In this document: piece after piece, positions 6,481 to 61,349 of the stretch
Numbering within the stretch: position 1 is the stretch's first letter
Layout: every line of letters starts with the position of its first letter
Origin: Nemertoderma westbladi
Taxonomy: Eukaryota > Animalia > Xenacoelomorpha
Direction of reading: 5' to 3'
NCBI GenBank assembly: GCA_032718475.1
Contig: JAUCBJ010002740.1
Location: forward strand, 1-64,000
DNA: 64,000 nt
Position numbers and translations under genes: made by a program
The notes under the pieces: model-generated
Told to the model about the DNA's origin: nothing
Databases searched by the model: none
What the model saw: only the letters and a program-made list of their open reading frames with translations

Positions 6481-6557
6481 CACATACACGAATGTCCGAG
6501 ACGCCGGGGGGGGATGGGGCTGGGGTGCCTGTGGGCGCTACCCGAATGTCCGAGGCG

Positions 6558-26836: not shown

Positions 26837-26859
26837 GTAGAATTCTGAAGAAATTTTTG

Positions 26860-35031: not shown

Positions 35032-35092
35032 ATGACGAAGTTATCAATCACGTCACTGATGCTTGTTATCATCTGTTCTACTTCCAGATCAG
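35032..35092 (+). CDS. Coding exon 1 of secreted ShKT + 4-module protein: signal peptide MTKLSITSLMLVIICSTSRS
   Basis: Acceptor tttcatcag|35011, ATG at 35032, hydrophobic core, phase-1 donor cag|gtagg that is in frame with the ShKT exon. Confidence 0.75.
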
Positions 35093-37048
35093 GTAGGCCT
35101 ACTCTGTATTGTAAAGAGTATAATACCTATACTAACCAACTAAAACCAAAATAACTAAATATTTTGGATATTTTTGTGGCGGGTACCTATGACCCTGAAG
35201 ATGCCCCGAGGTGTGAAATTGATTGGTCGGTAACGGTGATGGTTGATGTTACTAACTAACTAACTTTTTTTTAAGTATATTAATATACGAACGGGCGTTA
35301 TAAGAGCTCCAGATTTTTTCTAACTGGTATTCCTTGTTGTTTTATACGTTATGAACGCCCTGAAGTCGGCATGTCGTTTCCTGAATAACTGTTTGAAAAT
35401 GACATACTGTACTGTACTACTGCACCACTACAGTATCTACACAACAGTACTGCTGTTGTTACCGGTATCCCACAGTAGTTTAGGGATAAGAGGATTTTCA
35501 AAGGCCAAAAATGGGACTACAATATCAGAAAACTCTCTCCTATTCTAGCTAATCATTAGCGCGAGGGTTTAATACAACATAATTGTGTATTTAAATTCCC
35601 TCCTATATCAGCCAATATATAACAATAAGGGGGGAGTAATAAAGTCACATATTTGTCCATTTATATCATCCCCTAAAATAGGAGGATAAATTTATCAATT
35701 TATTAGTAAATTATTACACCACCTAAATAATTAACCCGTGCGCTTTTGGAGTTGAAATAAGTGTTTCTGCGCGCGATTTAATGTAGCGGGGTTTTAAAAC
35801 CAAATTTATTCCATAGACTGTACCAACGTGCTCCATTTTGTCGTGTGCTATTTAATTTAAATATATTTTATTTAATTAATTACATACAGTTACCCCGGTT
35901 TGAGGTGTAACGAAAAAATAAATGTTTAAGCTGAATCTTGTACCAGACCAAATGTTGCCTCTTAATGAGGAAGGTGATTCTTCTGCAGTTATCCAGTCTG
36001 CCGCTAGGTGGCGAAATGTCTGAAAGTGAAAACCTTCTACCATTTCCGTGATTTGAATTCGTTTAGGCTGAATCTTGGCTTATATGTACTATACTACTGT
36101 ACATGTTTCTTCTATGTGAAGAAGGTGATCGGTCTGCAGTTCTCCAGTCTGTCGCTAGAGGGCGACAGACTGGAGAATCTTCCTGTAAAAAATTACGTTT
36201 ATTTGATTTAATCAGCTGAAACTTGGCATATAAGTACTAGAAAACTGGCTGCTTCTTTGTGGGACGGTGACGGTACTCCATCTACATTTCTAGAGTTTAC
36301 CACTAGAGGTCGAAATATCAGAAAGAAAAAACCTTCTCTCATTTCGTCATTTGTTATCAGTTCAAGGTGGAACTTGGCAGATATACACGCTAGACCGCAG
36401 ACCATCCATAGGCTGCGTCTTTGTTGGGACAGTAATCCCTCGCCAGTTCTCCAGTCTACCGCTAAGTGGGTTAAAATGAAAACATTTTAGAAATATGTGA
36501 AATAAAAACCTTCAGCCCTTTCGTTTTATTGTTCCTGATTGATTCCCGGCACATATATTCTAGACCTCAGAGTGGTTTTTTCTCAGCAGATATATGTATA
36601 TTTTATATGTATGAATATTGGTTTTACATATATAATATTCCATTATACATAAATAAATATATTGATATATTCCTATATATGATACAATACGATACGTCAT
36701 GTGTGTGTGATACGCATTCAATAATAATTTTTGTTCAATATTCCACGAGTAACCGATGGTGAACCGACTACCAGAGTCGTCATTTTGAAGGATAAAACCT
36801 TTCAATTTCTTGGTATTGTTCCAAACCAAGTTTATGATGAAGAATTGCCAATTCCATTTTACCTGAAATTTCACGAGCTTGTCTTATCAATATACGTATC
36901 GTAATGTTTAATTTCTGTATATTTTGAGGTATTACTCCAATTATTTTATTGTTGTCATTTACTGTATATTAATCCGAACTTGATATGTACTCTACGGTGT
37001 AAATTAATTACTTCTCAATAACCTCACTATAATTTAATTTAATTACAG

Positions 37049-37165
37049 AAATTTGTGAAGATGCAAATTCAAATTGCCCTGCTTGGGCGGCCCGTGATCA
37101 ATGTGAGGCAAATCCTTTATACATGCTGAAGAATTGTCGGTTGTCATGTAAAGAATGCGTTAAAG
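37049..37165 (+). CDS. Coding exon 2: ShKT (ShK toxin-like) domain
   Basis: ttacag| (E)ICEDANSNCPAWAARDQCEANPLYMLKNCRLSCKECVK |gttag; canonical six-Cys ShKT spacing (C..C..W...C..NP.YM...C..SC..C); 117 nt, phase 1-1. Confidence 0.92.
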
Positions 37166-37330
37166 GTTAGTTTTTTCGCACCGTACAACTGTTAAGAACG
37201 AGGCTGATTGAACACCTGGAGTTTTCGATGCCAATTTTTAACAACTGCTCAACAATGATTATATATTGCCACATAACTTCATAGTCTAATTATATTTGTT
37301 TATTCTATCGTTATTATTTTATTCCTAAAG

Positions 37331-37726
37331 GGAGATTCACTATTCCTGCGACATTTGTAAGCGAGAAGGTTGGCCCAAATGGTCCTGAAGCCAAGTGCGG
37401 ATACGATATCAACGTGAGTTACGAGCAGGGCGATGCGGAAGTGCGTAGGCTGATAGACGAAGCAGACAGCTGCACCCAAACTGTTACCACCTCAACCCGA
37501 TACATCTACAGCCCCGACCTCTGTTTTGCTGATCGTGATGGCAACAAGCATCCATTCGATGTCTGGACCAATACAAAGTGCAGTCAGAGCTCTACTGAAT
37601 GTCTCGAGACCATTGTTGTTGCAAACAAGAAGTTACTTCCCATCACGAAATTGCAGGTTGGGGATACCGGTTCGTCCAATGAGGTGATCTACAGTGAAAC
37701 AGTCAGTGACATCGACTGCGTAAAGG
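37331..37726 (+). CDS. Coding exon 3: module 1 (Caspr/Neurexin-IV-type fibrinogen/COLFI-like domain)
   Basis: cctaaag| GRFTIPATFVSEKVGPNGPEAKCGYDINVSY...DRDG...KKLLPITKLQVGDTGSSNE...DIDCVK |gttag; 396 nt, phase 1-1. Confidence 0.88.
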
Positions 37727-37732
37727 GTTAGT

Positions 37733-40700
37733 TGATTGTTAGTGGAAACCAGGATAGTTTATCGGCTTACTGTGTTTGTTAGTGGACACCAGGATAGTTT
37801 ATCGGCTTACTGTGTTTGTTAGTGGACACCAGGATAGTTTATCGGCTTACTGTGTTTGTTAGTGGACACCAGGAGAGTTTATCGGCTTACTGTGTTTGTT
37901 AGTGGATACCAGGATAGTTTATCGGCTTACTGTGTTTGTTAGTGGACACCAGGATAGTTTATAGGCTTACTGTGTTTGTTAGTGGACACCAGGATAGTTG
38001 ATCAGCTTACTGTGTTTGTTAGTGGACACCAGGATAGTTTATCGGCTTACTGTGTTTGTTAGTGGACACCAGGATAGTTTAACGGCTTACTGTGTTTGTT
38101 AGTGGACACCAGGATAGTTTATCGGCTTACTGTGTTTGTTAGTGGACACCAGGATAGTTTATCGGCTTACTGTGTTTGTTAATGGGCACCTGGAGAGTTT
38201 ATCGGCTTACTGTGTTTGTTAGTGGACACCAGGATAGTTTATCGGCTTACTGTGTTTGTTAGTGGACACCAGGATAGTTTATCGGCTTACTGTGTTTGTT
38301 AATGGGCACCAGGAGAGTTTATCGGCTTACTGTGTTTGTTAGTGGACACCAGGATAGTTTATCGGCTTACTGTGTTTGTTAATGGGCACCAGGAGAGTTT
38401 ATCGGCTTACTGTGTTTGTTAGTGGACACCAGGATAGTTTATCGGCTTACTGTGTTTGTTAGTGGACACAAGGATAGTTTATAGGCTTACTGTGTTTGTT
38501 AGTGGACACCAGGATAGTTTATAGGCTTACTGTGTTTGTTAATGGACACCAGGATAGTTTATCGGCTTACTGTGTTTGTTAATGGGCACCAGGAGAGTTT
38601 ATCGGCTTACTGTGTTTGTTAATGGGCACCAGGAGTTTATCGGCTTACTGTGTTTGTTAGTGGACACCAGGATAGTTGATCAGCTTACTGTGTTTGTTAG
38701 TGGACACCAGGATAGTTTATCGGCTTACTGTGTTTGTTAATGGGCACCAGGAGTTTATCGGCTTACTGTGTTTGTTAGTGGACACCAGGATAGTTGATCA
38801 GCTTACTGTGTTTGTTAGTGGACACCAGGATAGTTTATCGGCTTACTGTGTTTGTTAGTGGACACCAGGATAGTTTATCGGCTTACTGTGTTTGTTAGTG
38901 GACACCAGGATAGTTTATCGGTTTACTGTGTTTGTTAGTGGACACCAGGATAGTTTATCGGCTTACTGTGTTTGTTAATGGGCACCAGGAGAGTTTATCG
39001 GCTTACTGTGTTTGTTAGTGGACACCAGGATAGTTGATCAGCTTACTGTGTTTGTTAGTGGACACCAGGATAGTTTATCGGCTTACTGTGTTTGTTAGTG
39101 GACACCAGGATAGTTTATCGGCTTACTCTGTTTGTTAATGGGCACCTGGAGAGTTTATCGGCTTACTGTGTTTGTTAGTGGACACCAGGATAGTTTATCG
39201 GCTTACTGCGTTTGTTAGTGGACACCAGGATAGTTTATCGGCTTACTGTGTTTGTTAATGGGCACCAGGAGAGTTTATCGGCTTACTGTGTTTGTTAGTG
39301 GACACCAGGATAGTTTATCGGCTTACTGTGTTTGTTAGTGGACACCAGGATAGTTTATCGGCTTACTGTGTTTGTTAGTGGACACCAGGATAGTTTATCG
39401 GCTTACTGTGTTTGTTAGTGGACACCAGGATAGTTGATCAGCTTACTGTGTTTGTTAGTGGACACCAGGATAGTTTATCGGCTTACTGTGTTTGTTAATG
39501 GGCACCTGGAGAGTTTATCGGCTTACTGTGTTTGTTAGTGGATACCAGGATAGTTTATCGGCTTACTGTGTTTGTTAATGGGCACCAGGAGAGTTTATCG
39601 GCTTACTGTGTTTGTTAGTGGACACCAGGATAGTTGATCAGCTTACTGTGTTTGTTAGTGGACACCAGGATAGTTTATCGGCTTACTGTGTTTGTTAATG
39701 GGCACCAGGAGAGTTTATCGGCTTACTGTGTTTGTTAGTGGACACCAGGATAGTTGATCAGCTTACTGTGTTTGTTAGTGGACACCAGGATAGTTTATCG
39801 GCTTACTGTGTTTGTTAGTGGACACCAGGATAGTTTATCGGTTTACTGTGTTTGTTAGTGGACACCAGGATAGTTTATCGGCTTACTGTGTTTGTTAATG
39901 GGCACCAGGAGAGTTTATCGGCTTACTGTGTTTGTTAGTGGACACCAGGATAGTTGATCAGCTTACTGTGTTTGATAGTGGACACCAGGATAGTTTATCG
40001 GCTTACTGTGTTTGTTAGTGGACACCAGGATAGTTTATAGGCTTACTGTGTTTGTTAGTGGACACCAGGATAGTTTATCGGCTTACTGTGTTTGTTAGTG
40101 GACACCAGGAGAGTTAACGGGTTACTGTGTTTGTTAGTGGACACCAGGATAGTTGATCAGCTTACTGTGTTTGTTAGTGGGCACCAGGATTGTTTATCGG
40201 CTTACTGTGTTTGTTAGTGGACACCAGGATAGTTGATCAGCTTAATGTGTTTGTTAATGGACACCAGGATAGTTTATCGGCTTACTGTGTTTGTTAGTGG
40301 ACACCAGGATAGTTTATAGGCTTACTGTGTTTGTTAGTGGACACCAGGATAGTTTATCGGCTTACTGTGTTTGTTAGTGGACACCAGGATAGTTTATCGG
40401 CTTACTGTGTTTGTTAATGGGCACCAGGAGAGTTTATCGGCTTACTGTGTTTGTTAGTGGACACCAGGATAGTTTATCGGCTTACTGTGTTTGTTAGTGG
40501 ACACCAGGATAGTTGATCAGCTTACTGTGTTTGTTAGTGGACACCAGGATAGTTTATAGGCTTACTGTGTTTGTTAGTGGACACCAGGATAGTTGATCAG
40601 CTTACTGTGTTTGTTAGTGGACACCAGGATAGTTTATCGGCTTACTGTGTTTGTTAGTGGACACCAGGATAGTTTATCGGCTTACTGTGTTTGTTAATGG

Positions 40701-43700
40701 GCACCAGGAGAGTTTATCGGCTTACTGTGTTTGTTAGTGGACACCAGGATAGTTGATCAGCTTACTGTGTTTGTTAGTGGACACCAGGATAGTTTATAGG
40801 CTTACTGTGTTTGTTAGTGGACACCAGGATAGTTGATCAGCTTACTGTGTTTGTTAGTGGACACCAGGATAGTTTATAGGCTTACTGTGTTTGTTAGTGG
40901 ACACCAGGATAGTTTATCGGCTTACTGTGTTTGTTAGTGGATACCAGGATAGTTTATCGGCTTACTGTGTTTGTTAGTGGACACCAGGATAGTTTATCAG
41001 CTTACTGTGTTTGTTAGTGGACACCAGGATAGTTTATCGGCTTACTGTGTTTGTTAGTGGACACCAGGATAGTTTATCGGCTTACTGTGTTTGTTAGTGG
41101 ACACCAGGATAGTTTATCGGCTTATTGTGTTTGTTAATGGGCACCAGGAGAGTTTATCGGCTTACTGTGTTTGTTAATGGGCACCAGGATAGTTTATCGG
41201 CTTACTGTGTTTGTTAGTGGACACCAGGATAGTTTATCGGCTTACTGTGTTTGTTAGTGGACACCAGGATAGTTGATCAGCTTACTGTGTTTGTTAGTGG
41301 AAACCCCCATAGTTGATCAGCTTACTGTGTTTGTTACTGGCACCAGGATAGTTTATAGGCTTACTGTGTTTGTTAGTGGGCACCAGGAGAGTTTATCGGC
41401 TTACTGTGTTTGTTAGTGGACACCAGGATAGTTTATCGGCTTACTGTGTTTGTTAGTGGACACCAGGATAGTTTATCGGCTTACTGTGTTTGTTAGTGGA
41501 CACCAGGATAGTTTATCGGCTTACTGTGTTTGTTAGTGGACACCAGGATAGTTGATCAGCTTACTGTGTTTGTTAGTGGACACCAGGATAGTTTATCGGC
41601 TTACTGTGTTTGTTAATGGGCACCTGGAGAGTTTATCGGCTTACTGTGTTTGTTAGTGGATACCAGGATAGTTTATCGGCTTACTGTGTTTGTTAATGGG
41701 CACCAGGAGAGTTTATCGGCTTACTGTGTTTGTTAGTGGACACCAGGATAGTTGATCAGCTTACTGTGTTTGTTAGTGGACACCAGGATAGTTTATCGGC
41801 TTACTGTGTTTGTTAATGGGCACCAGGAGAGTTTATCGGCTTACTGTGTTTGTTAGTGGACACCAGGATAGTTGATCAGCTTACTGTGTTTGTTAGTGGA
41901 CACCAGGATAGTTTATCGGCTTACTGTGTTTGTTAGTGGACACCAGGATAGTTTATCGGTTTACTGTGTTTGTTAGTGGACACCAGGATAGTTTATCGGC
42001 TTACTGTGTTTGTTAATGGGCACCAGGAGAGTTTATCGGCTTACTGTGTTTGTTAGTGGACACCAGGATAGTTGATCAGCTTACTGTGTTTGATAGTGGA
42101 CACCAGGATAGTTTATCGGCTTACTGTGTTTGTTAGTGGACACCAGGATAGTTTATAGGCTTACTGTGTTTGTTAGTGGACACCAGGATAGTTTATCGGC
42201 TTACTGTGTTTGTTAGTGGACACCAGGAGAGTTAACGGGTTACTGTGTTTGTTAGTGGACACCAGGATAGTTGATCAGCTTACTGTGTTTGTTGGTGGGC
42301 ACCAGGATTGTTTATCGGCTTACTGTGTTTGTTAGTGGACACCAGGATAGTTGATCAGCTTAATGTGTTTGTTAATGGACACCAGGATAGTTTATCGGCT
42401 TACTGTGTTTGTTAGTGGACACCAGGATAGTTTATAGGCTTACTGTGTTTGTTAGTGGACACCAGGATAGTTTATCGGCTTACTGTGTTTGTTAGTGGAC
42501 ACCAGGATAGTTTATCGGCTTACTGTGTTTGTTAATGGGCACCAGGAGAGTTTATCGGCTTACTGTGTTTGTTAGTGGACACCAGGATAGTTTATCGGCT
42601 TACTGTGTTTGTTAGTGGACACCAGGATAGTTGATCAGCTTACTGTGTTTGTTAGTGGACACCAGGATAGTTTATAGGCTTACTGTGTTTGTTAGTGGAC
42701 ACCAGGATAGTTGATCAGCTTACTGTGTTTGTTAGTGGACACCAGGATAGTTTATCGGCTTACTGTGTTTGTTAGTGGACACCAGGATAGTTTATCGGCT
42801 TACTGTGTTTGTTAATGGGCACCAGGAGAGTTTATCGGCTTACTGTGTTTGTTAGTGGACACCAGGATAGTTGATCAGCTTACTGTGTTTGTTAGTGGAC
42901 ACCAGGATAGTTTATAGGCTTACTGTGTTTGTTAGTGGACACCAGGATAGTTGATCAGCTTACTGTGTTTGTTAGTGGACACCAGGATAGTTTATAGGCT
43001 TACTGTGTTTGTTAGTGGACACCAGGATAGTTTATCGGCTTACTGTGTTTGTTAGTGGATACCAGGATAGTTTATCGGCTTACTGTGTTTGTTAGTGGAC
43101 ACCAGGATAGTTTATCAGCTTACTGTGTTTGTTAGTGGACACCAGGATAGTTTATCGGCTTACTGTGTTTGTTAGTGGACACCAGGATAGTTTATCGGCT
43201 TACTGTGTTTGTTAGTGGACACCAGGATAGTTTATCGGCTTATTGTGTTTGTTAATGGGCACCAGGAGAGTTTATCGGCTTACTGTGTTTGTTAATGGGC
43301 ACCAGGAGAGTTTATCGGCTTACTGTGTTTGTTAGTGGACACCAGGATAGTTTATCGGCTTACTGTGTTTGTTAGTGGACACCAGGATAGTTGATCAGCT
43401 TACTGTGTTTGTTAGTGGAAACCCCCATAGTTGATCAGCTTACTGTGTTTGTTACTGGCACCAGGATAGTTTATAGGCTTACTGTGTTTGTTAGTGGACA
43501 CCAGGATAGTTGATCAGCTTACTGTGTTTGTTAGTGGACACCAGGATAGTTTATCGGCTTACTGTGTTTGTTAGTGGACACCAGGATAGTTTATCGGCTT
43601 ACTGTGTTTGTTAGTGGACACCAGGATAGTTTATCGGCTTATTGTGTTTGTTAATGGGCACCAGGAGAGTTTATCGGCTTACTGTGTTTGTTAATGGGCA

Positions 43701-46330
43701 CCAGGAGAGTTTATCGGCTTACTGTGTTTGTTAGTGGACACCAGGATAGTTGATCAGCTTACTGTGTTTGTTAGTGGACACCAGGAAAGTTTATCGGCTT
43801 ACTGTGTTTGTTAGTGGACACCAGGATAGTTGATCAGCTTACTGTGTTTGTTAGTGGAAACCAGGATAGTTGATCAGCTTACTGTGTTTGTTAGTGGACA
43901 CCAGGATAGTTTATAGGCTTACTGTGTTTGTTAGTGGACACCAGGATAGTTTATCGGCTTACTGTGTTTGTTCATGGGCACCAGGAGAGTTTATCGGCTT
44001 ACTGTGTTTGTTAGTGGACACCAGGATAGTCGATCAGCTTACTGTGTTTGTTAGTGGACACCAGAATAGTTTATCGGCTTACTGTGTTTGTTAGTGGACA
44101 CCAGGATAGTTTATCGGCTTACTGTGTTTGTTAGTGGACACCAGGATAGTTTATCGGCTTACTGTGTTTGATAATGGGCACCAGGAGAGTTTATCAGCTT
44201 ACTGTGTTTGTTAGTGGACACCAGGATAGTTTATCGGCTTACTGTGTTTGATAGTGGACACCAGGATAGTTTATCGGCTTACTGTGTTTGTTAATGGGCA
44301 CCAGGAGAGTTTATCGGCTTACTGTGTTTGTTAGTGGATACCAGGATAGTTTATCGGCTTACTGTGTTTGTTAATGGGCACCAGGAGAGTTTATCGGCTT
44401 ACTGTGTTTGTTAGTGGACACCAGGATAGTTGATCAGCTTACTGTGTTTGTTAGTGGACACCAGGATAGTTTATAGGCTTACTGTGTTTGTTAGTGGACA
44501 CCAGGATAGTTGATCAGCTTACTGTGTTTGTTAGTGGACACCAGGATAGTTTATAGGCTTACTGTGTTTGTTAGTGGACACCAGGATAGTTTATCGGCTT
44601 ACTGTGTTTGTTAGTGGATACCAGGATAGTTTATCGGCTTACTGTGTTTGTTAATGGGCACCTGGAGAGTTTATCGGCTTACTGTGTTTGTTAGTGGATA
44701 CCAGGATAGTTTATCGGCTTACTGTGTTTGTTAGTGGACACCAGGATAGTTGATCAGCTTACTGTGTTTGTTAGTGGACACCAGGATAGTTTATCGGCTT
44801 ACTGTGTTTGTTAGTGGACACCAGGATAGTTTATCGGCTTACTGTGTTTGTTAGTGGACACCAGGTTGTTTATCGGCTTACTGTGTTTGTTAGTGGACAC
44901 CAGGATAGTTTATCGGCTTACTGTGTTTGTTAGTGGACACCAGGATAGTTTATCGGCTTATTGTGTTTGTTAATGGGCACCAGGAGAGTTTATCGGCTTA
45001 CTGTGTTTGTTAATGGGCACCAGGAGAGTTTATCGGCTTACTGTGTTTGTTAGTGGACACCAGGATAGTTGATCAGCTTACTGTGTTTGTTAGTGGAAAC
45101 CCCCATAGTTGATCAGCTTACTGTGTTTGTTAGTGGCACCAGGATAGTTTATAGGCTTACTGTGTTTGTTAGTGGACACCAGGATAGTTGATCAGCTTAC
45201 TGTGTTTGTTAGTGGACACCAGGATAGTTTATCGGCTTACTGTGTTTGTTAGTGGACACCAGGATAGTTTATCGGCTTACTGTGTTTGTTAGTGGACACC
45301 AGGATAGTTTATCGGCTTATTGTGTTTGTTAATGGGCACCAGGAGAGTTTATCGGCTTACTGTGTTTGTTAATGGGCACCAGGAGAGTTTATCGGCTTAC
45401 TGTGTTTGTTAGTGGACACCAGGATAGTTGATCAGCTTACTGTGTTTGTTAGTGGACACCAGGAAAGTTTATCGGCTTACTGTGTTTGTTAGTGGACACC
45501 AGGATAGTTGATCAGCTTACTGTGTTTGTTAGTGGAAACCAGGATAGTTGATCAGCTTACTGTGTTTGTTAGTGGACACCAGGATAGTTTATCGGCTTAC
45601 TGTGTTTGTTAGTGGACACCAGGATAGTTTAACGGCTTACTGTGTTTGTTCATGGGCACCAGGAGAGTTTATCGGCTTACTGTGTTTGTTAGTGGATACC
45701 AGGATAGTTTATCGGCTTACTGTGTTTGTTAATGGGCACCAGGAGAGTTTATCGGCTTACTGTGTTTGTTAGTGGACACCAGGATAGTTTATCGGCTTAC
45801 TGTGTTTGTTAATGGGCACCAGGAGAGTTTATCGGCTTACTGTGTTTGTTAATGGGCACCAGGAGAGTTTATCGGCTTACTGTGTTTGTTAGTGGACACC
45901 AGGATAGTTTATCGGCTTACTGTGTTTGTTAATGGGCACCAGGAGAGTTTATCGGCTTACTGTGTTTGTTAGTGGACACCAGGATAGTTTATCGGCTTAC
46001 TGTGTTTGTTAGTGGATACCAGGATAGTTTATCGGCTTACTGTGTTTGTTAATGGGCACCAGGAGAGTTTATCGGCTTACTGTGTTTGTTAGTGGACACC
46101 AGGATAGTTTATCGGCTTACTGTGTTTGTTAATGGGCACCAGGAGAGTTTATCGGCTTACTGTGTTTGTTAGTGGACACCAGGATAGTTGATCGGCTTAC
46201 TGTGTTTGTTAGTGGACACCAGGATAGTTTATCGGCTTACTGTGTTTGTTAGTGGACACCAGGATAGTTGATCGGCTTGCTGTGTTTGTTAGTGGACACC
46301 AGGATAGTTTATCGGCTTACTGTGTTTGTT
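37733..46330. repeat. 40-bp intronic satellite, ~215 copies (agtggacaccaggatagtttatcggcttactgtgtttgtt)
   Basis: Begins a few bases after the exon-3 donor; variant units show a 2118-bp higher-order duplication. Confidence 0.97.
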
Positions 46331-48439: not shown

Positions 48440-48853
48440 TGGATGTCGGTGTGGGCAAGTTTACTATTCCTGCGACATTCACAAGCGAGAAGGTTGGCCC
48501 AAATGGTCCTGAAGCCAAGTGCGGATACGATATCAACGTGAGTTACGAGCAGGGCGATGCGGAAGTGCGCGCTATGATAGACAAAGCGGACATCTGCCGT
48601 CAAACCATAACAACTTCAACCAAAGGCATTTACAGCCCCGATCTGTGTTTTGCCGATCGTGATGGAATCAAGCATCCATTCGATGTCTGGACCAATACAA
48701 AGTGCAGTCAGAGCACTACTGAATGTCTCGAGACCATTGTTGTTGAAGACAAGAAGTTACTGCCCGTCACGAAATTACAAGTTGGGGATACCGGTTCGTC
48801 CAATGAGGTGATCTACAGTGAGACAGTCAGTGACATCGACTGCGAGAAGTTCG
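48440..48853 (+). CDS. Coding exon 4: module 2
   Basis: tctacag| VDVGVGKFTIPATFTSEKVGPNGPEAKC...DIDCEKF |gttag; 414 nt, phase 1-1. Confidence 0.88.
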
Positions 48854-49233
48854 GTTAGTTCAGCTATTAGTTATTAGTTGTTAGTCCAGGGGGGGGGGGG
48901 GGGGGGGGGGGGGGGTAGCATACAAATATGGGCACCCCTAGGCATATCTTATCTTCTTCTTGTAAGTGAGAAGATCTCAACCCTCTTAAATTATTTGAAT
49001 AATGATAATATGCCAAATATAAAATAAATATGCGGAATAATATTAGCGAAGTATTATTGTACCTTCTTCATTGTCGATGCTCAAAAAATACTGTAAGGTA
49101 TATTGTAAAATTCCAAATAATATTTCTCGCCCACTAATAAATCCACACTGCTTTATTATTCTGGAGAGGTTCTTAATGTAAGCAAAACTATTAAATGTTA
49201 CGTGAACTTGTAATTTTTGTAGAATAATTTTTT

Positions 49234-51309
49234 ATGCAGCACCCCAACCCCACTCTCTATGGAACACCCCAACCCCACTCTCTATGGAACACCCCAACCC
49301 CACTCTCTATGCAACACCCCAACCCCGCTCTCTATGGAACACCCCAACCCCACTCTCTATGGAACACCCCAACCCCACTCTCTATGGAACACCCCAACCC
49401 CGCTCTCTATGGAACACCCCAACCCCACTCTCTATGGAACACCCCAACCCCACTCTCTATGGAACACCCCAACCCCGCTCTCTATGGAACACCCCAACCC
49501 CACTCTCTATGGAACACCCCAACCCCACTCTCTATGGAACACCCCAACCCCACTCTCTATGGAACACCCCAACCCCACTCTCTATGGAACACCCCAACCC
49601 CACTCTCTATGGAACACCCCAACCCCACTCTCTATGGAACACCCCAACCCCACTCTCTATGGAACACCCCAACCCCACTCTCTATGGAACACCCCAACCC
49701 CACTCTCTATGGAACACCCCAACCCCACTCTCTATGGAACACCCCAACCCCACTCTCTATGCAACACCCCAACCCCACTCTCTATGTAACACCCCAACCC
49801 CACTCTCTATGGAACACCCCAACCCCACTCTCTATGGAACACCCCAACCCCACTCTCTATGGAACACCCCAACCCCACTCTCTATGGAACACCCCAACCC
49901 CACTCTCTATGCAGCACCCCAGCCCCACTCTCTATGCAGCACCCCAACCCCACTCTCTATGGAACACCCCAACCCCACTCTCTATGGAACACCCCAACCC
50001 CACTCTCTATGGAACACCCCAACCCCACTCTCTATGGAACACCCCAACCCCACTCTCTATGCAACACCCCAACCCCACTCTCTATGTAACACCCCAACCC
50101 CACTCTCTATGGAACACCCCAACCCCACTCTCTATGGAACACCCCAACCCCACTCTCTATGGAACACCCCAACCCCACTCTCTATGGAACACCCCCAACC
50201 CCACTCTCTATGCAGCACCCCAGCCCCACTCTCTATGCAGCACCCCAACCCCACTCTCTATGGAACACCCCAACCCCACTCTCTATGGAACACCCCAACC
50301 CCACTCTCTATGGAACACCCCAACCCCACTCTCTATGGAACACCCCAACCCCACTCTCTATGGAACACCCCAACCCCACTCTCTATGGAACACCCCAACC
50401 CCACTCTCTATGGAACACCCCAACCCCACTCTCTATGGAACACCCCAACCCCACTCTCTATGCAGCACCCCAGCCCCACTCTCTATGCAGCACCCCAGCC
50501 CCACTCTCTATGGAACACCCCAACCCCACTCTCTATGGAACACCCCAGCCCCACTCTCTATGGAACACCCCAACCCCACTCTCTATGGAACACCCCAACC
50601 CCACTCTCTATGGAACACCCCAACCCCACTCTCTATGGAACACCCCAACCCCACTCTCTATGGAACACCCCAACCCCACTCTCTATGGAACACCCCAACC
50701 CCACTCTCTATGGAACACCCCAACCCCACTCTCTATGGAACACCCCAACCCCACTCTCTATGGAACACCCCAACCCCACTCTCTATGGAACACCCCAACC
50801 CCACTCTCTATGGAACACTCCAACCCCACTCTCTATGGAACACCCCAACCCCACTCTCTATGCAGCACCCCAACCCCACTCTCTATGCAGCACCCCAACC
50901 CCACTCTCTATGGAACACCCCAACCCCACTCTCTATGGAACACCCCAACCCCACTCTCTATGGAACACCCCAACCCCACTCTCTATGGAACACCCCAACC
51001 CCACTCTGTATGGAACACCCCAACCCCACTCTCTATGGAACACCCCAACCCCACTCTCTATGGAACACCCCAACCCCACTCTCTATGGAACACCCCAACC
51101 CCACTCTCTATGGAACACCCCAACCCCACTCTCTATGGAACACCCCAACCCCACTCTCTATGGAACACCCCAACCCCACTCTCTATGGAACACCCCAACC
51201 CCACTCTCTATGGAACACCCCAACCCCACTCTCTATGGAACACCCCAACCCCACTCTCTATGGAACACCCCAACCCCACTCTCTATGGAACACCCCAACC
51301 CCACTCTCT
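49234..51309. repeat. 25-bp intronic minisatellite, ~83 copies (ggaacaccccaaccccactctctat)
   Basis: Direct reading; two CCCC runs per unit. Confidence 0.97.
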
Positions 51310-52105
51310 AAGTTAATTAATTTCTATTCATCGAGTTAATTTGTTTATGATCCACTTTACAAATATATTTTTTTCGAGAGTAACCAATAACAACCATGCA
51401 ATGTCAAACTATGCATTAGCTGTATTTTCATGGAGGTGATGTCAGTTTTTTTTCAATTTTTTTGACCGTTTTTTACTCTTTTGTCCGTTTATTTTTGCAT
51501 AAGGACTTATGTGTTAGTTTATTGACTATAAGCCCACAAGGGACCAAGAGGCATATCTTATCTTCTTCTTGTAAGCTTCTAATTGCTACATTAAATTGTA
51601 GCAATTACAACTGCTCACATACAGCAACAATCACGACTTACCTGGCAAACTGTAAATGAGGTATCTGGTCGGAAAAGTTGTGCAAAGGGGCGCCTCAAAG
51701 CCGATAGTCCCGAATAACGTGTTGGGAAGTGGAAAATCACTTCAGCAACTTGCTTGGGCAACCACCAAACATCGAGATGAACACCAAACATCATTGACCT
51801 ACAAAGAATATATAAGACAAGACGCTACCCATAGAAACAGAATACTTTACACCTGTCAAACTCCAGAGAAACTTTAATTAAAAGTGCTGGTGCTGAACAG
51901 ACCATTGTTGGATGTTTGCAACCGGATGCTGAAAGCGGAAGAGCTACCGCCAATTTGGACTAAAGGTCAACTAGAACCAGGAAAGGAGACTTCGGTATAC
52001 CAACAAACTATCGTGGGATCTGTCTGCTTGTGGTATCTGCCAAAAATACAACAAAATGATCCTATATAAAATTAGACCTCACATAGAGAAACTGTTGCGT
52101 CAGAG

Positions 52106-52314
52106 CATGGAATGCTATATAGAGAGTCTCTATATAGCATTCCACGAACCTCCGCATGAACCTTCCATGAAATATTCTATACCGACGGCAGTCGTACAGA
52201 AGACTAAAGCGGGATCAGTGCAAGCTGCTGTCCTTAGACGAGCTTTAAAGGTTGTGCGCCCTCGACCCCTTCAGTCCTCCGATAAACGTGTCGATATCTA
52301 TATAGCATTCCATG
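52106..52314. mobile_element. P-element-like MITE inserted in the LINE
   Basis: TIRs catggaatgctatataga / tctatatagcattccatg; TSD gtcagag on both sides; removal restores LRQSQNGFR. Confidence 0.8.
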
Positions 52315-52388
52315 GTCAGAGCCAAAATGGATTTCGACCAAATAGGTCACCAATAGCTCAGATACTTGCGCTATGGATGCTGATTGAA

Positions 52389-52890
52389 TATGAGTATAGA
52401 TACCGTCGGGTCTACCTCTACGTAATTCGGAAATACCTCAATCTCAACTACAATGAGGATAACTTAGATACTTCACCAATAATAGATGAGAGAATGTAAT
52501 ATCACCGAGAGGAAGGTGATATATGACGTATCTAATCAATATGCACTTAAGTGAAACTACAACAAAACCTCCGGTAAATATAACCAATATTGGTAACATC
52601 TGGCTAATCTGTCGTTAACACTTTACTCATCTTTGTCCTAATCCGAGAGCTGTAAATGGCCCCTTTTCTAGATTCATTGTCCCCCTACACCACCGATATA
52701 AGCGTCACCAATTATAATAGCACTTCTCAATGGGCTCTTAGTAGTACTAATTAACCCAGCATTTGTTTAGTACAATCCATAATTGTTTGCTCACTTCCTG
52801 TTATGTATCCAACTCCACTTTACAGCCAATATTATATCCAAGGGTATTGCTTATCTATTGCCATTATTGATTAAATATTATTCACTCACA
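52389..52890. mobile_element. Probable solo LTR inserted in the LINE
   Basis: Termini tatgagt (TG mutated to TA)...actcaca; 5-bp TSD ttgaa (52384-88, 52891-95); internal tataa and attaaa signals; the LINE RT resumes right after it. Confidence 0.7.
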
Positions 52891-53724: not shown

Positions 53725-56600
53725 TTATTATTATTTGTATTGGAAAATTTTGTCGTGCTTTGTTTTGAAGTTAAATCAAGACAATATCCCCTTGATGTAT
53801 TTCTCGCTTGACTCTCCCTTAGCCGAAGGTGATCCATTGCTAATATTTACTAAGAGCGTTTTTTTACTGTAGTCATATAGTAACATCGATTTTAGCGAAG
53901 GGCAGGGGAAATACTTGTTACACTTTTCAAAAGTGGAAGCGAGGCCCTGTTAGATTGGCAAGGACCGTTGAAAAGAGTTGAATCGCCAATTGGGTGCGCG
54001 TTGCATTCGAATCAACAGCCCAATGGCCGCACGGAAGGATTCAATGGCCGCACGAAAGTTTAAATGGCCTCACGGAAGGATTCAATGGCCACACGGGAGG
54101 ATTCAATGGCCACACGGAAGGATTTAATGGCCACACGGAAGGATTCAATGGCCACACGAAAGGATTCAATGGCCACACGGAAGGATTCAATGGCCACACG
54201 GAAGGATTCAATGGCCACACGGAAGGATTCAATGGCCGCACGGAAGGATTCAATGGCCACACGGAAGGATTCGAAGGCCGCACGGAAGAATTCAATGGCC
54301 ACACGGAAGGATTCAATGGCCACACGGAAGGATTCAATGGCCGCACGGAAGGATTCAATGGCCACACGGAAGGATTCGAAGGCCGCACGGAAGGATTCAA
54401 TGGCCACACGGGTGGATTCAATGGCCACACGGAAGGATTTAATGGCCACACGGAAGGATTCAATGGCCACACGAAAGGATTCAATGGCCACACGGAAGGA
54501 TTCAATGGCCGCACGGAAGGATTCAATGGCCACACGGAAGGATTCGAAGGCCGCACGGAAGGATTCAATGGCCACACGGAAGGATTCAATGGCCGCACGG
54601 AAGTTTAAATGGCCTCACGGAAGGATTCAATGGCCGCAGGGAAGGATTCAATGGCCACACGGGAGGATTCAATGGCCACACGGAAGGATTTAATGGCCAC
54701 ACGGAAGGATTCAATGGCCACACGAAAGGATTCAATGGCCACACGGAAGGATTCAATGGCCACACGGAAGGATTCAATGGCCACACGGAAGGATTCAATG
54801 GCCACACGGAAGGATTCAATGGCCACACGAAAGGATTCGAAGGCCGCACGGAAGGATTCAATGGCCACACGGAAGGATTCAATGGCCACACGGAAGGATT
54901 CAATGGCCGCACGGAATGATTCAATGGCCGCACGGAAGATTCAATGGCCGCACGGAAGGATTCGAAGGCCGCACGGAAGGATTCAATGGCCACACGGAAG
55001 GATTCAATGGCCACACGGAAGGATTTAATGGCCGCACGGAAGGATTCAATGGCCGCACGGAAGGATTCAATGGCCGCACGGAAGGATTCAATGGCCGCAC
55101 GGAAGGATTAAATGGCCGCACGGAAGGATTCAATGGCCGCACGGAAGGATTCAATGGCCGCACGGAAGGATTCAATGTCTATATCGTTTGTCTTAAATAA
55201 TTTTAAAATTAGAGTTGCTTACATAGCTAAGCTACCGACATGGAGGAGGCTGCGTAGTTTCTTCTGATAGTGTACATTTACAGCTTCCCTTGCCTCCTCT
55301 GTTACAGCTCCCATCTGGAATATTAGGTTATAGAGTAGTACTGGTTTGGCGTACGAGTTCCATAAGGTTGCAACGTCGTCAACTCTAACATGCTTTGCGT
55401 CCACCCGGTTCGTTTGAAAGTTTTACTCACCACAGTAATTGGTTTGATACACTCGTTATATATCTTTGTTTTTGTAGCTTTAATTTTAAAATCTAGGAGA
55501 TTTAAAGGCGTTGAAACGGCAACTAAGTTGCCATTGATAGTTCGAATTATTGGAGTAATGTAATGAGGTTTTCAATTGAGTAGCCATCCATTTGGTTTTC
55601 TGCTGCTCGATTCGTACGTAATAATCCAATGGATTTGAGATTGGTTTGAATTTAGTCAGTCATAGTTAGTTTCTATGTCATTCGGGTTTGTTTGTAAGAA
55701 TATCATCAGCATAGATTGTAAGGGCCTATCCAGATCCCATTACTGAAACAGCCAATACCCCTGTTCTTCAGGCTAGCAGTAGTGCTGTCAGCGGTATAGA
55801 AGTTGAAAGGGTATGTGAGTATGTGAGATTAGCGATCCCCCTTTGACCACGTTTGACCAGAAAACCTTATTTGTCAATGCTGTTACAGAAATTCGACCAA
55901 TCGCGTAGTATTCAAGTAGTGAGCTGCAGACGTGTGGATCTATAGCAGTCGTTTGCTTCTTAAACAGATGCGAACGGCCCACATTGTCGAAAGCATCTTG
56001 GATGTCCATACTCCATCTGAAACATGTACACTTGCTTCCCAGGTTGACGTTGGTTCTCAATTGCCTCCAGTATAGTACCAACTACGATATCCGCACCGAT
56101 ATTATTTTTATATGCTACTTGGTGTTCATTTTGCAAGAGATCTGCTAATAGTGTTTTCTCACTAGGGACTCAAACACTTATCGAAAGACGCATTGCCCAT
56201 TATGACTTCCCGTTATTTATGTTTTTCCCTTTTCCTTTGTGTATAGTTGTGGCATCTGTGCTACCAAATTGAGTTGGCAGTCGGCCAATATTTAAAGCGC
56301 ATTCTAGAATTTTCCTTATATGCTCGCTGTCTCTCTACGTTAGTATGAGTGAAAGGTTAGGGCTTCACGGTCAGGTGCCTTTCCTTGAGAAAGGATCCAT
56401 GTAACTGGTATTACTGGTGTGTGTGAATTTATGCATCTTTTATTTACTTGATCTGTAATATTGCCGTTATCTTTAGTCTCGGTGTGCAATTTTCCTGGGG
56501 TTCCCAATATCTGTCCTGTAGTTGCGTATTGACCCCTGTACAGTGTACACTGGTCGAGGTTGGTGGTGGATCTCATCGTTTGGTTGAGAAGAAATGCCAG
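53725..56600 (-). mobile_element. Highly decayed CR1/L2-like LINE (RT region and 3' end)
   Basis: Minus strand reads MDIQDAFDNV, VVKGGSLIS and tatgctgatgatatt (YADDI, ~55700), with a (taa)n tail near 53730. Confidence 0.6.
54020..55176. repeat. 21-bp minisatellite, ~55 copies (ggattcaatggcc(a/g)cacggaa)
   Basis: Direct reading; ~545-bp higher-order duplication (54057/54602). Confidence 0.97.
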
Positions 56601-56794
56601 AATTGTTAGGGGTCTTTAATTTTCTTGTTAGAATAATGTCCGATTTTGTCCTGTAATCTGTTGTTTGTTAAGAAATTAGGTTACGTAGGTCCCGGTTGTC
56701 CTTTTGGATTCCCGAAAAGCGGCATGCAGTTTAATTCCATAGTCCGTCTCTTTGTTCGTTAAGTGTGACCAAGCATTGTAGAGCCTTTTGGTTG

Positions 56795-57250: not shown

Positions 57251-59098
57251 AAATTTAATCCTTCCCATTATTGGTCAAGTCTCTGCTGGTGTGGAGCTAG
57301 CTGCTGGGAGTTGTGGCTGTAGACTAACCTGAGAGGAATTGTAATAGAGGCAACCAGTATTGCTATTCCAGCCCAATCACTGAATTGTGTTTATTATAGG
57401 CTGGACGGGCCGCATAACCGTTCGACTATTACTACTATTGCTATCTCAGTTAAATGACAGATATAATAACATAAATACAATCCATGACATGGCTGTTGTA
57501 GGCTTCTGAAATAGTTTATTCCACAATGTATATGTCTGGTTATTTTTTAATTGAATTTTTGCAAAGTAGTAAAATTAATGTTCTTAAAAATAATATTATT
57601 ATTTTATATGTAACCTAGGAAATTAGCTACATTTTTTCGCTGCAGCTTTAAGAGTGTACATTGATTTAATATTATTTCAATACCCATATTACTACATCGG
57701 CATAAGATGCGTTGGCGTTGTATCACACATCTCCACATATCACACATCTCCACATAGATGTATCAACAGTTACTCGCACAGTTTCGAAACTTCGCATAGT
57801 TATAACTGTATAAAGATCGTCAGTCTGCGTTTAGGAAAAATATTTTATGACAAAACAGGACAAGCGACGAGCGCAACGAGGCATATAATGAAGACGAGTA
57901 CTGCGTTGACTAAATTATTATATAAACCACCTGGCTTCACATATTGATCGCATCCCTAGTTATTATTATTATAAAGATCGTCCTAGCTTGCGTTTAAGAA
58001 ATATATTTAAATACAAAACAGTACGAACGCAAAGAGGCTTATAATGAAAACGAGTACTGCGTTTATTATATTCCTATAAACCACCTGGCTTTGCATATTT
58101 AACGTGCGATTGGAAATAAGTTCGTGCTACCCTTCCGTGGGTGGTAGATGTCGCGGTTATGTATTGGTGGTTGGGAAGGGTGGGGGGGGGGGGGGAGATT
58201 AAAAGGGGTGAACACGTATTGTCCACCTTTCTTTGATTGATTGGTGGTGTGGGTAAATTTCTCAAAACCTGATTTTGTGATACAGTCGCTGCATTTTAAT
58301 TTGTATATAATAACTAGGCCTCGTGCTGCGCGAAGTCCCCACGAACGTGTATTCCTGCGGACTATAATTTACTTAATACATTTTGATGCAGCTACTTGCA
58401 GAATATTGGTCAAAGCTAGCATATAATTTTCCATTGCGTCAAAGATCCATGAGGATGGGGATGGTGGAAATTCCTGTTCAAGAATGTTGAGTTGTGTTGA
58501 TGGTGTGATGTGTTGAGTCATGTGTTGATTGCCAGAAAAGTTGATGACCTAGCCTTTACTTCTTCAGCAGCGCCAACTGAGTCACAGTCTGCGCTCTCGG
58601 GCCAATTACTGGGATAGAGAGTCGTTAGCGATCAAGTACAGTAATGCAGCATTACCTATCCTATACCTGGTAGGCAGTAGTGGACAGATCGAATTATCGA
58701 TATGTATGTTTAAAATGACTAGCATTTCCGAATGACCTGTCAATAAAGAGTCAATAGTTCAATTCACTGAACAACACATACCAGGACATCTAAACGTAAA
58801 AAAACAAAAAAAAATAACAAAATAAAATTTGATGGGACACGAAAAGGTTTTCTGCATTCTCATAGTCACTTATCTTTCTTATTGGCAATGTTGTTTTATT
58901 GATTGCACGAAATAACTGACTGTATGTGTATGAGACTTCAATGTCCTTAAATTTGTATCTTTAGTGGACTGATAGTTGTCATGATGGCACTGATAGTTGT
59001 CATGATGGCACTGATAGTTGTCATGATGGCGTTTCTAGTATTCCACTATTCCATCATCTTTTATACTACTGTATATATATTTTTTGTTATTCTTAAAG

Positions 59099-59497
59099 AG
59101 GAAGTTACTATTCCAGCGACATTCGTAAGCGAGAAAGTTGGACCCAGTGGACCTGAAGCCAAATGCGGATACGATATCAACGTGAGTTACGAGCAGGGCG
59201 AGGATGAAGTGCGTGCTATCATAGACAGGTCGATCAGCTGCATCCAAACCATAACTATATCATCCAAAGGCATTTACAGCCCCGATCTGTGTTTTGCCGA
59301 TCGTGATGGCAACAAGCATCCATTCGATGTCTGGACCAATACAAAGTGCAGTCAGAGCACTACTGAATGTCTCGAGACCATTGTTGTTGAAGACAAGAAC
59401 TTACTGCCCGTCACGAAATTGCAGGTTGGGGATACCGGTTCGTCCAGTGAGGTGATATACAGCGAGACTGTCAGTGACATAGTCTGCAAAAAGGCAG
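59099..59497 (+). CDS. Coding exon 5: module 3
   Basis: ttcttaaag| EEVTIPATFVSEKVGPSGPEAKC...DIVCKKA |gttag; 399 nt, phase 1-1. Confidence 0.88.
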
Positions 59498-60951
59498 GTT
59501 AGTTTGTTTGTTGTCAGATGCACACCACAGTTAGATGCGCAAATGGACCGCAAATAAAAACGTGATCCCCAACTCATATAAAATAAAGTTTTGTTCATTG
59601 TTTTGGTTAGAAAACACTAACACTGCAATCTGCTCATTAATGTTTTAAATTAAATTAAATTAAATTAAGGTTTTAAACCCTCTAATCACATTTGGTGTTT
59701 GTGGTAATTTTGCGCCATTAACTCCAGTTGCACTATTAATTGATTGCAATCCTTATTTATGTGCAGGTTTGTTAAAGTGTTCATTAACAATTTATTCGTT
59801 TTTGACGCCCCTTGGCGACCAGAGCCAACATTTTATTTTTGACTTAAAATGCTATTCCTTCTTATGCTTTATTTTCAGAAGTACTGATAGTAACCTGTTT
59901 TTTGGAATCAACAATTGTCGATTACGTGATAAAATTCGAGAAAATTTTTTTCGTTACCTTTTAAGGAAAATACCGCGAATTATCAAAATATATTTCAAAT
60001 TGTCAAAAAAACGGCTGCATTTCACGTAAAACAAGTTATAACAGATTAATAATGGCAATACTAAAAACACAGCTCGAATTTATTATTGCGCGCACGACTA
60101 GCTTATTTGATACAAAAAAGTAAAAATTTGTTTAAACATTTAAAATTGCACAGGAGTAGTAATTATAAAATGAAAAAATGCTATTCCGAGATAATTTCCT
60201 TTAAATTTTGAACCTTCCCACGCAAAAACTGTCTGTTAATATGTAAGAATGTCTGTCAATATATGTATATCTAGCTACAAGAAAGCACCAAACAATGCTG
60301 AGATTTTTGCTATGGTGGTTTTCCTGGTCGCTGATTTCATTTCTGAGGTCAGTTTTCTCTTTTAATGACTTTAGTTTTCTGTATGTCTGTTTGTCGGTCA
60401 GTTTGACTGTCCGAAGGTCTGTCTTTCAAAATGTAAGAAAATGGCACACCACCATTTAGCCATAAGTTCAGCTACAGGGGTTGTCCTGGTCGCAAAATTC
60501 ATTTCTGATTTCAGTTTTTACATTTGATGGCTTTCAAACTATCTGTCTTTGACAGTAAATGACTTTTACGTAAACTGAATTACTTTATCTGGGCTCCAGT
60601 TGCTACTGTACCATCCTGGAATCTGGTGTCCTAATATGAGAGGCTCGTGTTACTCATCATTAACCAATGCAACAATTGATAATTTCGAGAACTCCCCCTT
60701 AAATCTTACATTTTGTAAACTCCTCATCCAGTAAGCCTCCAGTCCCGCCTAAAGAGTCTGGGGTTGAGAAATTCAGTGCAAAATCTCCTGGTCGAAATGT
60801 GCGGGGCGAAATGTCATACGGGGCGAAAAGGTCCGGAGACCAAATAGTGTAGTAAGAAAGGTCAGCGACAAAAATTGGGAACGAAAAGTCCGCAATGACC
60901 AGAGATAGTAGAGGTCTGAGTTGTTAATTATCCCGTCATTGTTTCATACAG

Positions 60952-61349
60952 GAAGGTTGACAATTCCCGCAACACTCGTAAGCGAGAAGGTTGGACCAAA
61001 TGGTCCTGAAGCCAAGTGCGGATACGATATCAACGTGAGTTATGAGAAGAGCGATGCGGAACTGCGCGCTCTGATAGACGCAGCCTACAGCTGCCACCAA
61101 GTCGTTACCACCTCAACCCAATACATCTACAGCCCCGATCTGTGTTTTGTTGATCGTGATGGCAACAAGCATCCATTCGATGTCTGGACCAATACAAAGT
61201 GCAGTCAGAGCACTACTGAATGTCTCGAGTTCATAGTAGTTGACGATAAGAAGTTACTTCCCATCACGAAATTGGCGGTTGGGGATACCGGTTCGTCCAA
61301 TGAGGTGATCTACAGTGAGAGTGTCAGTGAGATAGTCTGCGACGTCTAA
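60952..61349 (+). CDS. Coding exon 6 (terminal): module 4 and stop
   Basis: tttcatacag| GRLTIPATLVSEKVGPNGPEAKC...EIVCDV taa; aataaa at ~61673. Confidence 0.88.

What the first reader, a model, noticed from the sequence alone, without database searches (positions are those of the whole stretch)
35032..61349. Unassembled six-exon gene: signal peptide + ShKT toxin domain + four tandem Caspr-type fibrinogen/COLFI-like modules
Seen in sequence: exons 35032-35092, 37049-37165, 37331-37726, 48440-48853, 59099-59497 and 60952-61349 join through canonical GT/AG phase-1 introns into 1785 nt (594 aa + stop). There is no transmembrane segment. From family knowledge: exon 2 is a textbook ShKT domain. The module motifs (E...Y...V.Y...ALID...C.Q.I; DRDG; DKxLLP(V/I)TKLxVGDTG..E; terminal C) track the fibrinogen-like domain of Caspr/CNTNAP/Neurexin IV, but the Cys-rich CACG...CNCD loop looks shortened. 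Inference: a secreted multivalent lectin-like or recognition protein carrying an ion-channel-toxin-fold module, possibly for defence, venom, mucus or innate immunity. I know of no named protein with this architecture.
Basis: partly seen in the sequence, partly recalled or inferred. Interest (0 to 1): 0.85.

Follow-up and report, generated by a model that had tools for sequence, protein, structure and literature searches.

The report
Secreted four-petal collagen-tail protein with ShKT
Six in-frame exons of an animal gene likely splice into one predicted secreted protein, in which a small sea-anemone-toxin-type domain leads four near-identical modules predicted to fold like the outer 'petal' of the collagen tail but lacking the base piece that relatives keep, so it likely grips repeated targets in mucus or matrix rather than acting as a sugar-binding lectin or a toxin.

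Summary
The six exons are real at the stated coordinates: GT/AG, all phase 1, 1785 nt. Exon 2 is ShK (PF01549, E 1.7e-9). Exons 3-6 are four recent copies (76-88% identical, dN/dS 0.25-0.39). They belong to the Caspr/neurexin-IV-type, COLFI-related domain family (96 relatives). Two models match the procollagen C-propeptide petal, residues 79-246 (Z 10.8 and 9.0). In a profile search that is the only part matching fibrinogens, and in collagen it holds the calcium site and much of the trimer interface. 96 of 102 homologous domains score for a base and the other 6 show a degenerate one; the window has none. So 'fibrinogen-like lectin' is unsupported. The ShKT lacks the Lys-Tyr pair and is likely an accessory domain. 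Tandem arrays occur in 7 of 97 relatives; none carries ShK. Best reading: a secreted, single-chain, multivalent binder in mucus or matrix. Splicing and function are inferred. New variant of a known kind; moderate interest.

The parts
35032..35092 (+). Exon 1: start codon and predicted signal peptide (20 residues plus a split codon)
   Evidence: hydropathy and upstream in-frame stop; single copy in the window
37049..37165 (+). Exon 2: ShKT domain, six Cys, net charge zero (5 K/R, 5 D/E), phase 1-1
   Evidence: PF01549 E 1.7e-9; best PDB match 2MCR_A E 2.3e-5; single copy in the window
37331..37726 (+). Exon 3: petal-only COLFI/Caspr-type module 1, six Cys, one N-glycosylation sequon, phase 1-1
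   Evidence: model mf3ccf9fa2ad8 (pLDDT 70.9) matches 5K31_A 79-246, Z 10.8, rmsd 2.6, 129 aligned
37736..46330 (.). 40-bp satellite (about 215 copies) filling intron 3; holds 164 donor-like GTTAGT hexamers
48440..48853 (+). Exon 4: module 2, with five extra N-terminal linker residues, phase 1-1
59099..59497 (+). Exon 5: module 3, phase 1-1
   Evidence: model mc86e2962a5d3 (pLDDT 76.2) matches 5K31_A 79-246, Z 9.0, rmsd 3.1, 121 aligned
60952..61349 (+). Exon 6: module 4 and stop codon
61350..61678 (+). Likely 3' UTR with candidate polyadenylation signals ATTAAA (61505) and AATAAA (61673)
   Evidence: use untested

Best explanation
The six exons likely splice into one predicted secreted glycoprotein of 594 residues whose four modules are predicted to be stand-alone 'petals' of the collagen C-propeptide (COLFI)/Caspr-type fold and likely bind a repeated extracellular target in mucus or matrix by avidity, with the ShKT likely a disulfide-stabilised accessory domain and not a channel blocker. 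Shown: exon anatomy, family membership of the module, loss of the base subdomain, purifying selection. Inferred: an ancestral signal-ShKT-petal gene was assembled from phase 1-1 exons, then the petal exon was duplicated to four. Inferred: without stalk and base the protein cannot trimerise the way procollagen does, so repetition within one chain supplies the multivalency that the trimer gives elsewhere. Inferred: the nearly invariant stretch (core residues 56-90) is the shared binding or structural face, and the variable helix (30-55) faces neighbouring modules or is freed from its old interface. The target is not identified.
For: Fold: both models rank procollagen C-propeptides first (Foldseek E 1.8e-4 and 1.7e-4; VIA Z 10.8 and 9.0, the only chain with Z of 8 or more among 48,161 each time), over chain residues 79-246; PMC5353611 (passages) defines the petal as 77-246 and the base as 30-76 with the Ca2+ site and interchain disulfide. 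Family: 96 proteins at E 0.001 or better, many with PF01410, several named CNTNAP5, contactin-associated protein-like 2 or neurexin-4; 14 invariant columns with 8 of the relatives, among them four Cys and G-D-T. Base missing: base profile scores 15 bits or more before 96 of 102 homologous domains, 0.5 or less on window exons, best E 1.2 in six frames of the window; intron 2 is only 165 nt; linkers from the last Cys to the next module's first conserved motif are 5-10 residues. Selection: dN/dS 0.25-0.39; 18 of 35 variable positions lie in one 26-residue stretch, 0 of 10,000 shuffles reach that. Secretion: signal-like exon 1, even Cys numbers, one sequon per module. ShKT without the dyad is reported in mucus proteins (PMC7333891, passages).
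Against: No ligand or tissue is known; 'mucus or matrix' rests on analogy. Model confidence is moderate (pLDDT 71 and 76) and identity to 5K31 is 12%. The direct link to a full neurexin-IV-like protein is weak (hhalign 48%, 20 columns); membership comes through profiles. The base profile was built from 77 of the domains it was tested on. The invariant stretch also has low synonymous divergence (pS 0.116), so gene conversion may explain it as well as a binding site. In collagen III the petals themselves carry interchain contacts (PMC5353611), so loss of the base does not exclude oligomers. Lack of the dyad does not exclude channel activity (PMC6409789, passages).
Confidence: 0.5

Rival explanations
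1. A secreted pattern-recognition or lectin-like protein: each petal has gained a sugar or microbe-surface site, and the variable helix gives each module a different specificity.
For: Variation is clustered; beta-sandwich carbohydrate-binding modules appear among the lower fold matches (Z 5-7.8); four copies suit avidity for glycans.
Against: The fibrinogen-related part is absent; those fold matches are within the range the tool calls common arrangement; in the variable stretch pN 0.23 is below pS 0.36, so no sign of positive selection; only one gene copy in the window.
Confidence: 0.2
2. A venom or defence protein in which the ShKT blocks potassium channels and the petals act as carrier or anchor.
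For: Canonical six-Cys ShK at the N-terminus of the mature chain; MMP-23 ShK modulates Kv1 without the dyad (PMC6409789, passage).
Against: No Lys-Tyr pair at the aligned place; net charge zero; best PDB matches are ShK domains of metalloproteinases, and no anemone toxin was among the 3 hits at E up to 10; five-residue linker to module 1, with no dibasic site seen in it.
Confidence: 0.08
3. The internal exons are alternative cassettes: exons 3, 4 and 5 are skipped or chosen singly, giving proteins with one to four petals, so the 594-residue form is only one product.
For: Exons 2-5 are all multiples of three and phase 1-1, so any can be skipped in frame; intron 3 holds 164 donor-like hexamers.
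Against: All acceptors look of similar strength by my crude score; symmetric exons are also what plain tandem duplication leaves; no sequence feature enforcing exclusion was seen.
Confidence: 0.15
4. A collagen-assembly modulator: free petals mimic procollagen C-propeptides and bind procollagen or its processing partners, such as the proteinase enhancer.
For: Top fold matches include C-propeptide-PCPE-1 complexes; the variable helix likely corresponds to collagen helix-4, whose ends make interchain contacts (PMC5353611; correspondence inferred).
Against: By sequence the module sits with the Caspr-type branch, not with collagens (no collagen chain among the 10 weak hits); only 12% identity to 5K31.
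Confidence: 0.07

Closest known systems
Caspr/CNTNAP/neurexin-IV 'fibrinogen-like' domain and the many small secreted proteins of corals, lancelets and hemichordates that databases label CNTNAP5, contactin-associated protein-like 2 or neurexin-4 (e.g. P0021, P0046, P0081, P0095)
   Same: C-x-Q, W, C...C, K-x-L-P, G-D-T and terminal Cys motifs; 23-35% identity over most of the module for the best-covered hits.
   Different: No base subdomain; the second Cys of C-x-Q-x5/6-C (105 of 105 homologous domains) is lost in all four modules; the C-x-C loop (90 of 105) is cut down; two Cys at new places; long stem branch of 2.88 changes per column; no laminin-G, EGF, discoidin or membrane anchor; ShKT in front.
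Fibrillar procollagen C-propeptide (COLFI, PF01410; PDB 5K31, 4AE2)
   Same: Predicted fold superposes on the whole petal, residues 79-246.
   Different: No triple helix, stalk or Ca2+-binding base; 12% identity; no PF01410 hit at E up to 1; four copies in one chain.
Unnamed tandem-array relatives P0001/P0015 (three domains), P0003, P0016, P0017, P0018, P0019 (two or three)
   Same: Several copies of the domain in one chain; P0001 is the best single hit (E 3.7e-11).
   Different: Each repeat keeps a base or a degenerate base, repeats are old and divergent, none has ShK.
ShKT-bearing multidomain secreted proteins (astacin-ShKT, CAP-ShKT, limpet mucus P-vulgata_14, Toxocara mucins; PMC6409789, PMC7333891)
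   Same: Six-Cys ShKT without the Lys-Tyr dyad used as an accessory domain.
   Different: Partner domain: none of the passages read names a COLFI- or Caspr-type partner.

Membership tests
ShKT domain (PF01549) | Six-Cys pattern above Pfam's gathering score | tested here: met
   38.5 bits vs 20.9, profile 2-37 of 37
ShK-type Kv1 toxins | Lys-Tyr functional dyad between Cys3 and Cys4 | tested here: not met
   absent at the place where 2MCR_A has it; dyad defined in PMC6409789
ShK-type Kv1 toxins | Measured channel block | not testable with these tools
   needs electrophysiology
Caspr-type/COLFI-related domain superfamily | Sequence homology of the petal part | tested here: met
   homologue-only profile finds all four exons at E about 1e-11
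Caspr-type/COLFI-related domain superfamily | Base subdomain (Cys...Tyr-x-Ile-Asp-Pro...Val-x-Cys) before the petal | tested here: not met
Caspr/CNTNAP/neurexin-IV proteins | Laminin-G and EGF domains, transmembrane segment (as in P0108) | tested here: not met
   no such Pfam hit in exons 2-6, no membrane segment, stop in exon 6
Fibrillar collagen C-propeptide (COLFI) | Petal fold | tested here: met
   predicted models; Z 10.8, rmsd 2.6, 129 aligned and Z 9.0, rmsd 3.1, 121 aligned
Fibrillar collagen C-propeptide (COLFI) | Gly-X-Y helix, coiled-coil stalk, Ca2+-binding base | tested here: not met
   none in the six exons; match begins at residue 79; regions defined in PMC5353611
Fibrillar collagen C-propeptide (COLFI) | Trimer formation | not testable with these tools
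   needs biophysics on the protein
Fibrinogen-related lectins (ficolin, tachylectin-5, FIBCD1) | Sequence homology to the fibrinogen C domain | tested here: not met
   no PF00147 hit; in the family profile, matches to fibrinogen-related chains end at profile position 208 or earlier, where the window's modules only begin
Fibrinogen-related lectins (ficolin, tachylectin-5, FIBCD1) | Fold match to the fibrinogen C domain | tested here: inconclusive
   not among the listed rows; an unlisted family is not excluded
Fibrinogen-related lectins (ficolin, tachylectin-5, FIBCD1) | Carbohydrate binding | not testable with these tools
   needs a glycan array

The most novel reading that the evidence does not exclude
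The COLFI petal has become a free, exon-sized module that folds without stalk, base or calcium. Because a petal's two ends lie side by side and the linkers are only 5-10 residues, the four copies cannot form a rod: they fan out from one hub as a single-chain four-petal rosette that rebuilds the procollagen 'flower' inside one polypeptide, with the fast-changing helix tuning petal-to-petal contacts and the ShKT sitting where the base used to be.
Probability: 0.25. Interest if true: 0.65.

Novelty: new variant of a known kind. Interest (0 to 1): 0.42.

Why it matters
It shows that the 'fibrinogen-like' domain of the Caspr/neurexin-IV type is two separable parts, a fibrinogen-related base and a collagen-type petal, and that nature appears to use the petal alone. 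A soluble, naturally base-less petal would be a simple tool to ask what this little-studied domain binds, a question open also for human CNTNAP proteins (recalled, not from a call). It also warns against reading 'lectin' or 'toxin' from domain labels. The parts are all known kinds and ShKT is a promiscuous partner, so the surprise is moderate.

Tried and rejected
No whole genome is held for this window, so paralogues elsewhere in the genome were not examined. RNA runs: none was listed for 59099-61500; this is no evidence on expression, and no reads could be laid. Complex prediction of three copies of module 3: verdict 'no answer', score 0.00, alignment not used; no evidence for or against binding. 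Word-seeded protein searches with module 3 (longer proteins, 188 candidates) and with the four-module alignment (near lengths, 209 candidates) gave no hit; the third search scored only the 7988 best candidates of 241-2000 residues, so close relatives or other petal-only proteins can have been missed. Metagenome contig scan: 138 pattern matches, none confirmed. PDB sequence searches with module alignments: 0 hits and 10 weak hits, nine papillomavirus E6 chains over about 40 residues, rejected as chance. Three of the six hits (P0002, P0005, P0006) are Ig-repeat proteins matching 28-36 residues and were dropped. ESM Atlas: only sub-0.9 leads for module 3, none for P0004. No fibrinogen C domain was listed in the fold searches. 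Separate genes per module: rejected, exons 1 and 2 occur once in the window. Missed base exons in the introns: none found. Intron-3 satellite as an amplified exon-intron junction: not supported, 182 of 1000 shuffles align as well. Homology among intron ends beyond the donor: none above shuffles. Tree of 43 of 109 domains: window clade 100/100, sister P0004 95/95, but on a very long stem and P0004 is a fragment, so origin is unresolved. Paper searches found no description of ShKT joined to COLFI/Caspr-type domains or of a base-less petal; the library lacks most subscription journals and I read no supplements, where domain tables could list it.
Full report
Observation. The six exons measure 61, 117, 396, 414, 399 and 398 nt, sum to 1785 nt, are bounded by GT and AG, and all five introns are phase 1; each exon is open in frame and the last ends in TAA. 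An in-frame stop stands five codons before the ATG. The acceptors rank in the top 20-80 of 1549 AGs by a crude score, and two polyadenylation-like hexamers follow the stop. Exons 1 and 2 occur once in the window and the module four times, so this is one gene and not four. Introns 3 and 4 are long because of satellites. The splicing itself is inferred from DNA.

Exon 1 and exon 2. Exon 1 has a Lys at position 3, a hydrophobic core (9-residue mean 2.86) and a Ser-rich end, as a signal peptide would; no predictor was available. No other segment is hydrophobic enough to span a membrane. Exon 2 is a full ShK domain (PF01549, 38.5 bits). Its best solved relatives are ShK domains of metalloproteinases (2MCR_A, E 2.3e-5; 2K72_A, E 0.49); it does not carry the Lys-Tyr pair where 2MCR_A does and its net charge is zero. 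PMC6409789 (passages) calls that dyad essential in ShK, lists ShKT as a common accessory domain, and warns that its absence does not prove inactivity. PMC7333891 (passages) reports dyad-less ShKT in a limpet mucus protein and nematode mucins.

The modules. They have no Pfam hit at E up to 1. They are 82-88% identical to module 1, and dN/dS is 0.25-0.39 in all six pairs, so they are maintained as protein. Each has six Cys and one N-glycosylation sequon. A full HMMER scan of 1.84 billion representatives gave six hits; three were short chance matches to Ig-repeat proteins and three were real (P0001, E 3.7e-11; P0003; P0004). A profile from three modules and those three relatives found 96 proteins among 7988 scored candidates, many with PF01410 and several named CNTNAP5, contactin-associated protein-like 2 or neurexin-4, and one full neurexin-IV-like protein with laminin-G and EGF domains (P0108, E 7.2e-6). 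An alignment with eight relatives keeps 14 invariant columns. A profile from 105 homologous domains alone finds the four exons at E about 1e-11 and nothing else in the window. The direct comparison with P0108 is weak (48%, 20 columns).

Fold. Two AlphaFold2 models (pLDDT 70.9 and 76.2) both rank procollagen C-propeptides first by Foldseek and by VIA-align (5K31_A: Z 10.8, rmsd 2.6, 129 aligned; Z 9.0, rmsd 3.1, 121 aligned; next rows 7.8 and 6.5). The matched range is 79-246. PMC5353611 (passages) divides the C-propeptide into stalk (8-29), base (30-76, with Ca2+ and the interchain disulfide) and petal (77-246, with a Cys81-Cys244 bond). The module is therefore one petal.

Relatives carry a base before the petal. 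Of 107 domains in 97 proteins (P0007, a near-copy of P0001, left out), 5 are cut off upstream and were dropped; 96 of the other 102 score 15 bits or more with a base profile, and the remaining 6 show a degenerate Cys...Val/Ile-x-Cys segment by eye (the profile was built from 77 of them). The window's exons score 0.5 or less, six frames of the window give nothing better than E 1.2, intron 2 has no room for such an exon, and only 5-10 residues separate one unit's last Cys from the next module's first conserved motif. Searching the PDB with the family profile, fibrinogens, angiopoietin-like proteins, tachylectin-5A, tenascin and FIBCD1 match only up to profile position 208, the base. So the modules have lost exactly the part that earns the name 'fibrinogen-like', and the lectin analogy does not carry over. 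They also lost a Cys present in 105 of 105 homologous domains, shortened the Cys loop and hold two Cys at new places.

Variation. Of 128 core positions 35 vary; 18 fall in residues 30-55, the one long helix and the strand after it (0 of 10,000 shuffles). There pN is 0.23 and pS 0.36, which is relaxed constraint, not positive selection; residues 59-90 are nearly fixed (pN 0.019) but also have low pS (0.116), so conversion is possible. That the helix equals collagen helix-4, whose ends make interchain contacts, is inferred; I saw no residue-level superposition.

History. All internal exons are phase 1-1, the classic state of shuffled extracellular modules (established knowledge). The four internal donors after exons 2-5 all read GTTAGTT, 4 of 9 occurrences in 64 kb, and exons 2 and 3 end in nearly the same ten bases, which suggests, without proving, that the duplicated unit took its donor from the ShKT exon. 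The tree (43 of 109 domains) joins the four modules (100/100) on a 2.88-long stem next to the fragment P0004 (95/95); the origin is unresolved. Earlier scan notes on this genome point to a nemertodermatid or acoel worm; I did not test this.

Mechanism. Most likely (0.5) the gene makes a secreted glycoprotein in which four petals in one chain supply the multivalency that stalk-and-base trimers give in collagen, binding a repeated target in mucus or matrix, with ShKT as an accessory cap. Rivals: a newly evolved lectin or pattern-recognition protein (0.2), alternative cassettes (0.15), a channel-blocking defence protein (0.08), a procollagen-assembly modulator (0.07). Since the petal's termini are neighbours in collagen and the linkers are short, a single-chain rosette is the boldest reading not excluded (0.25).

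Novelty. Tandem arrays of the family are not new: 7 of 97 relatives have two or three domains, and earlier unchecked notes describe two- and seven-domain arrays in other animals. No ShK was found in the relatives (no PF01549 in the 96 rows; no hit better than E 2.3 among 141 stored proteins). Ten paper searches and passages of PMC12549020, PMC7058181, PMC4224354 and PMC6453901 gave no description of this architecture or of a base-less petal; supplements were not read and eukaryotic coverage of the databases is uneven. Verdict: real gene, new variant of a known kind, interest 0.42.

Noticed in passing
window 11616-12389 (-): Uninterrupted 257-codon frame with one PDZ domain (PF00595, E 3.1e-14), an acidic linker and a C-terminal tail that resembles NHERF/EBP50 (resemblance recalled); apparently intronless.
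   Followed up: partly
window 7373-8293 (-): Uninterrupted 306-codon frame with Gly/Tyr/Pro/Gln repeats followed by an FGF-type beta-trefoil match (PF00167, E 8.2e-8, above cut-off); an unusual pairing, exact sequence not in the protein collection.
   Followed up: partly
window 252-2378 (+): Decayed retroelement in four separate frames; weak reverse-transcriptase match (PF00078, E 4.8e-5, below cut-off), likely non-LTR.
   Followed up: partly
window 37736-46330: 40-bp satellite starting ten bases into intron 3, about 215 copies with 164 GTTAGT hexamers like the true donor; not shown to derive from the exon end.
   Followed up: yes
window 5073-6484, 22305-32615, 32614-34493, 49233-51310, 54021-55177: Further satellites of 35, 41 (with higher-order repeats), 63, 25 and 21 bp; with the intron-3 array they fill about 40% of the window.
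   Followed up: no
whole window: The palindrome TAGGCCTA occurs 15 times against 0.83 expected from base composition, once in the exon-1 donor.
   Followed up: no
window 34985-35031 (+): A T-rich tract ending in CAG at 35010 lies 21 bases before the ATG, suggesting an upstream untranslated exon and a 5' UTR intron.
   Followed up: no
window 63240-63893 (+) and 51975-52496 (+): Open frames of 218 and 174 codons without Pfam match at E 0.1; unexplained.
   Followed up: partly
stored proteins P0020-P0107: A very large set of about 330-390-residue proteins joining two Ig domains to one Caspr-type/COLFI domain, some named from stony corals; looks like an expanded, little-described family.
   Followed up: no
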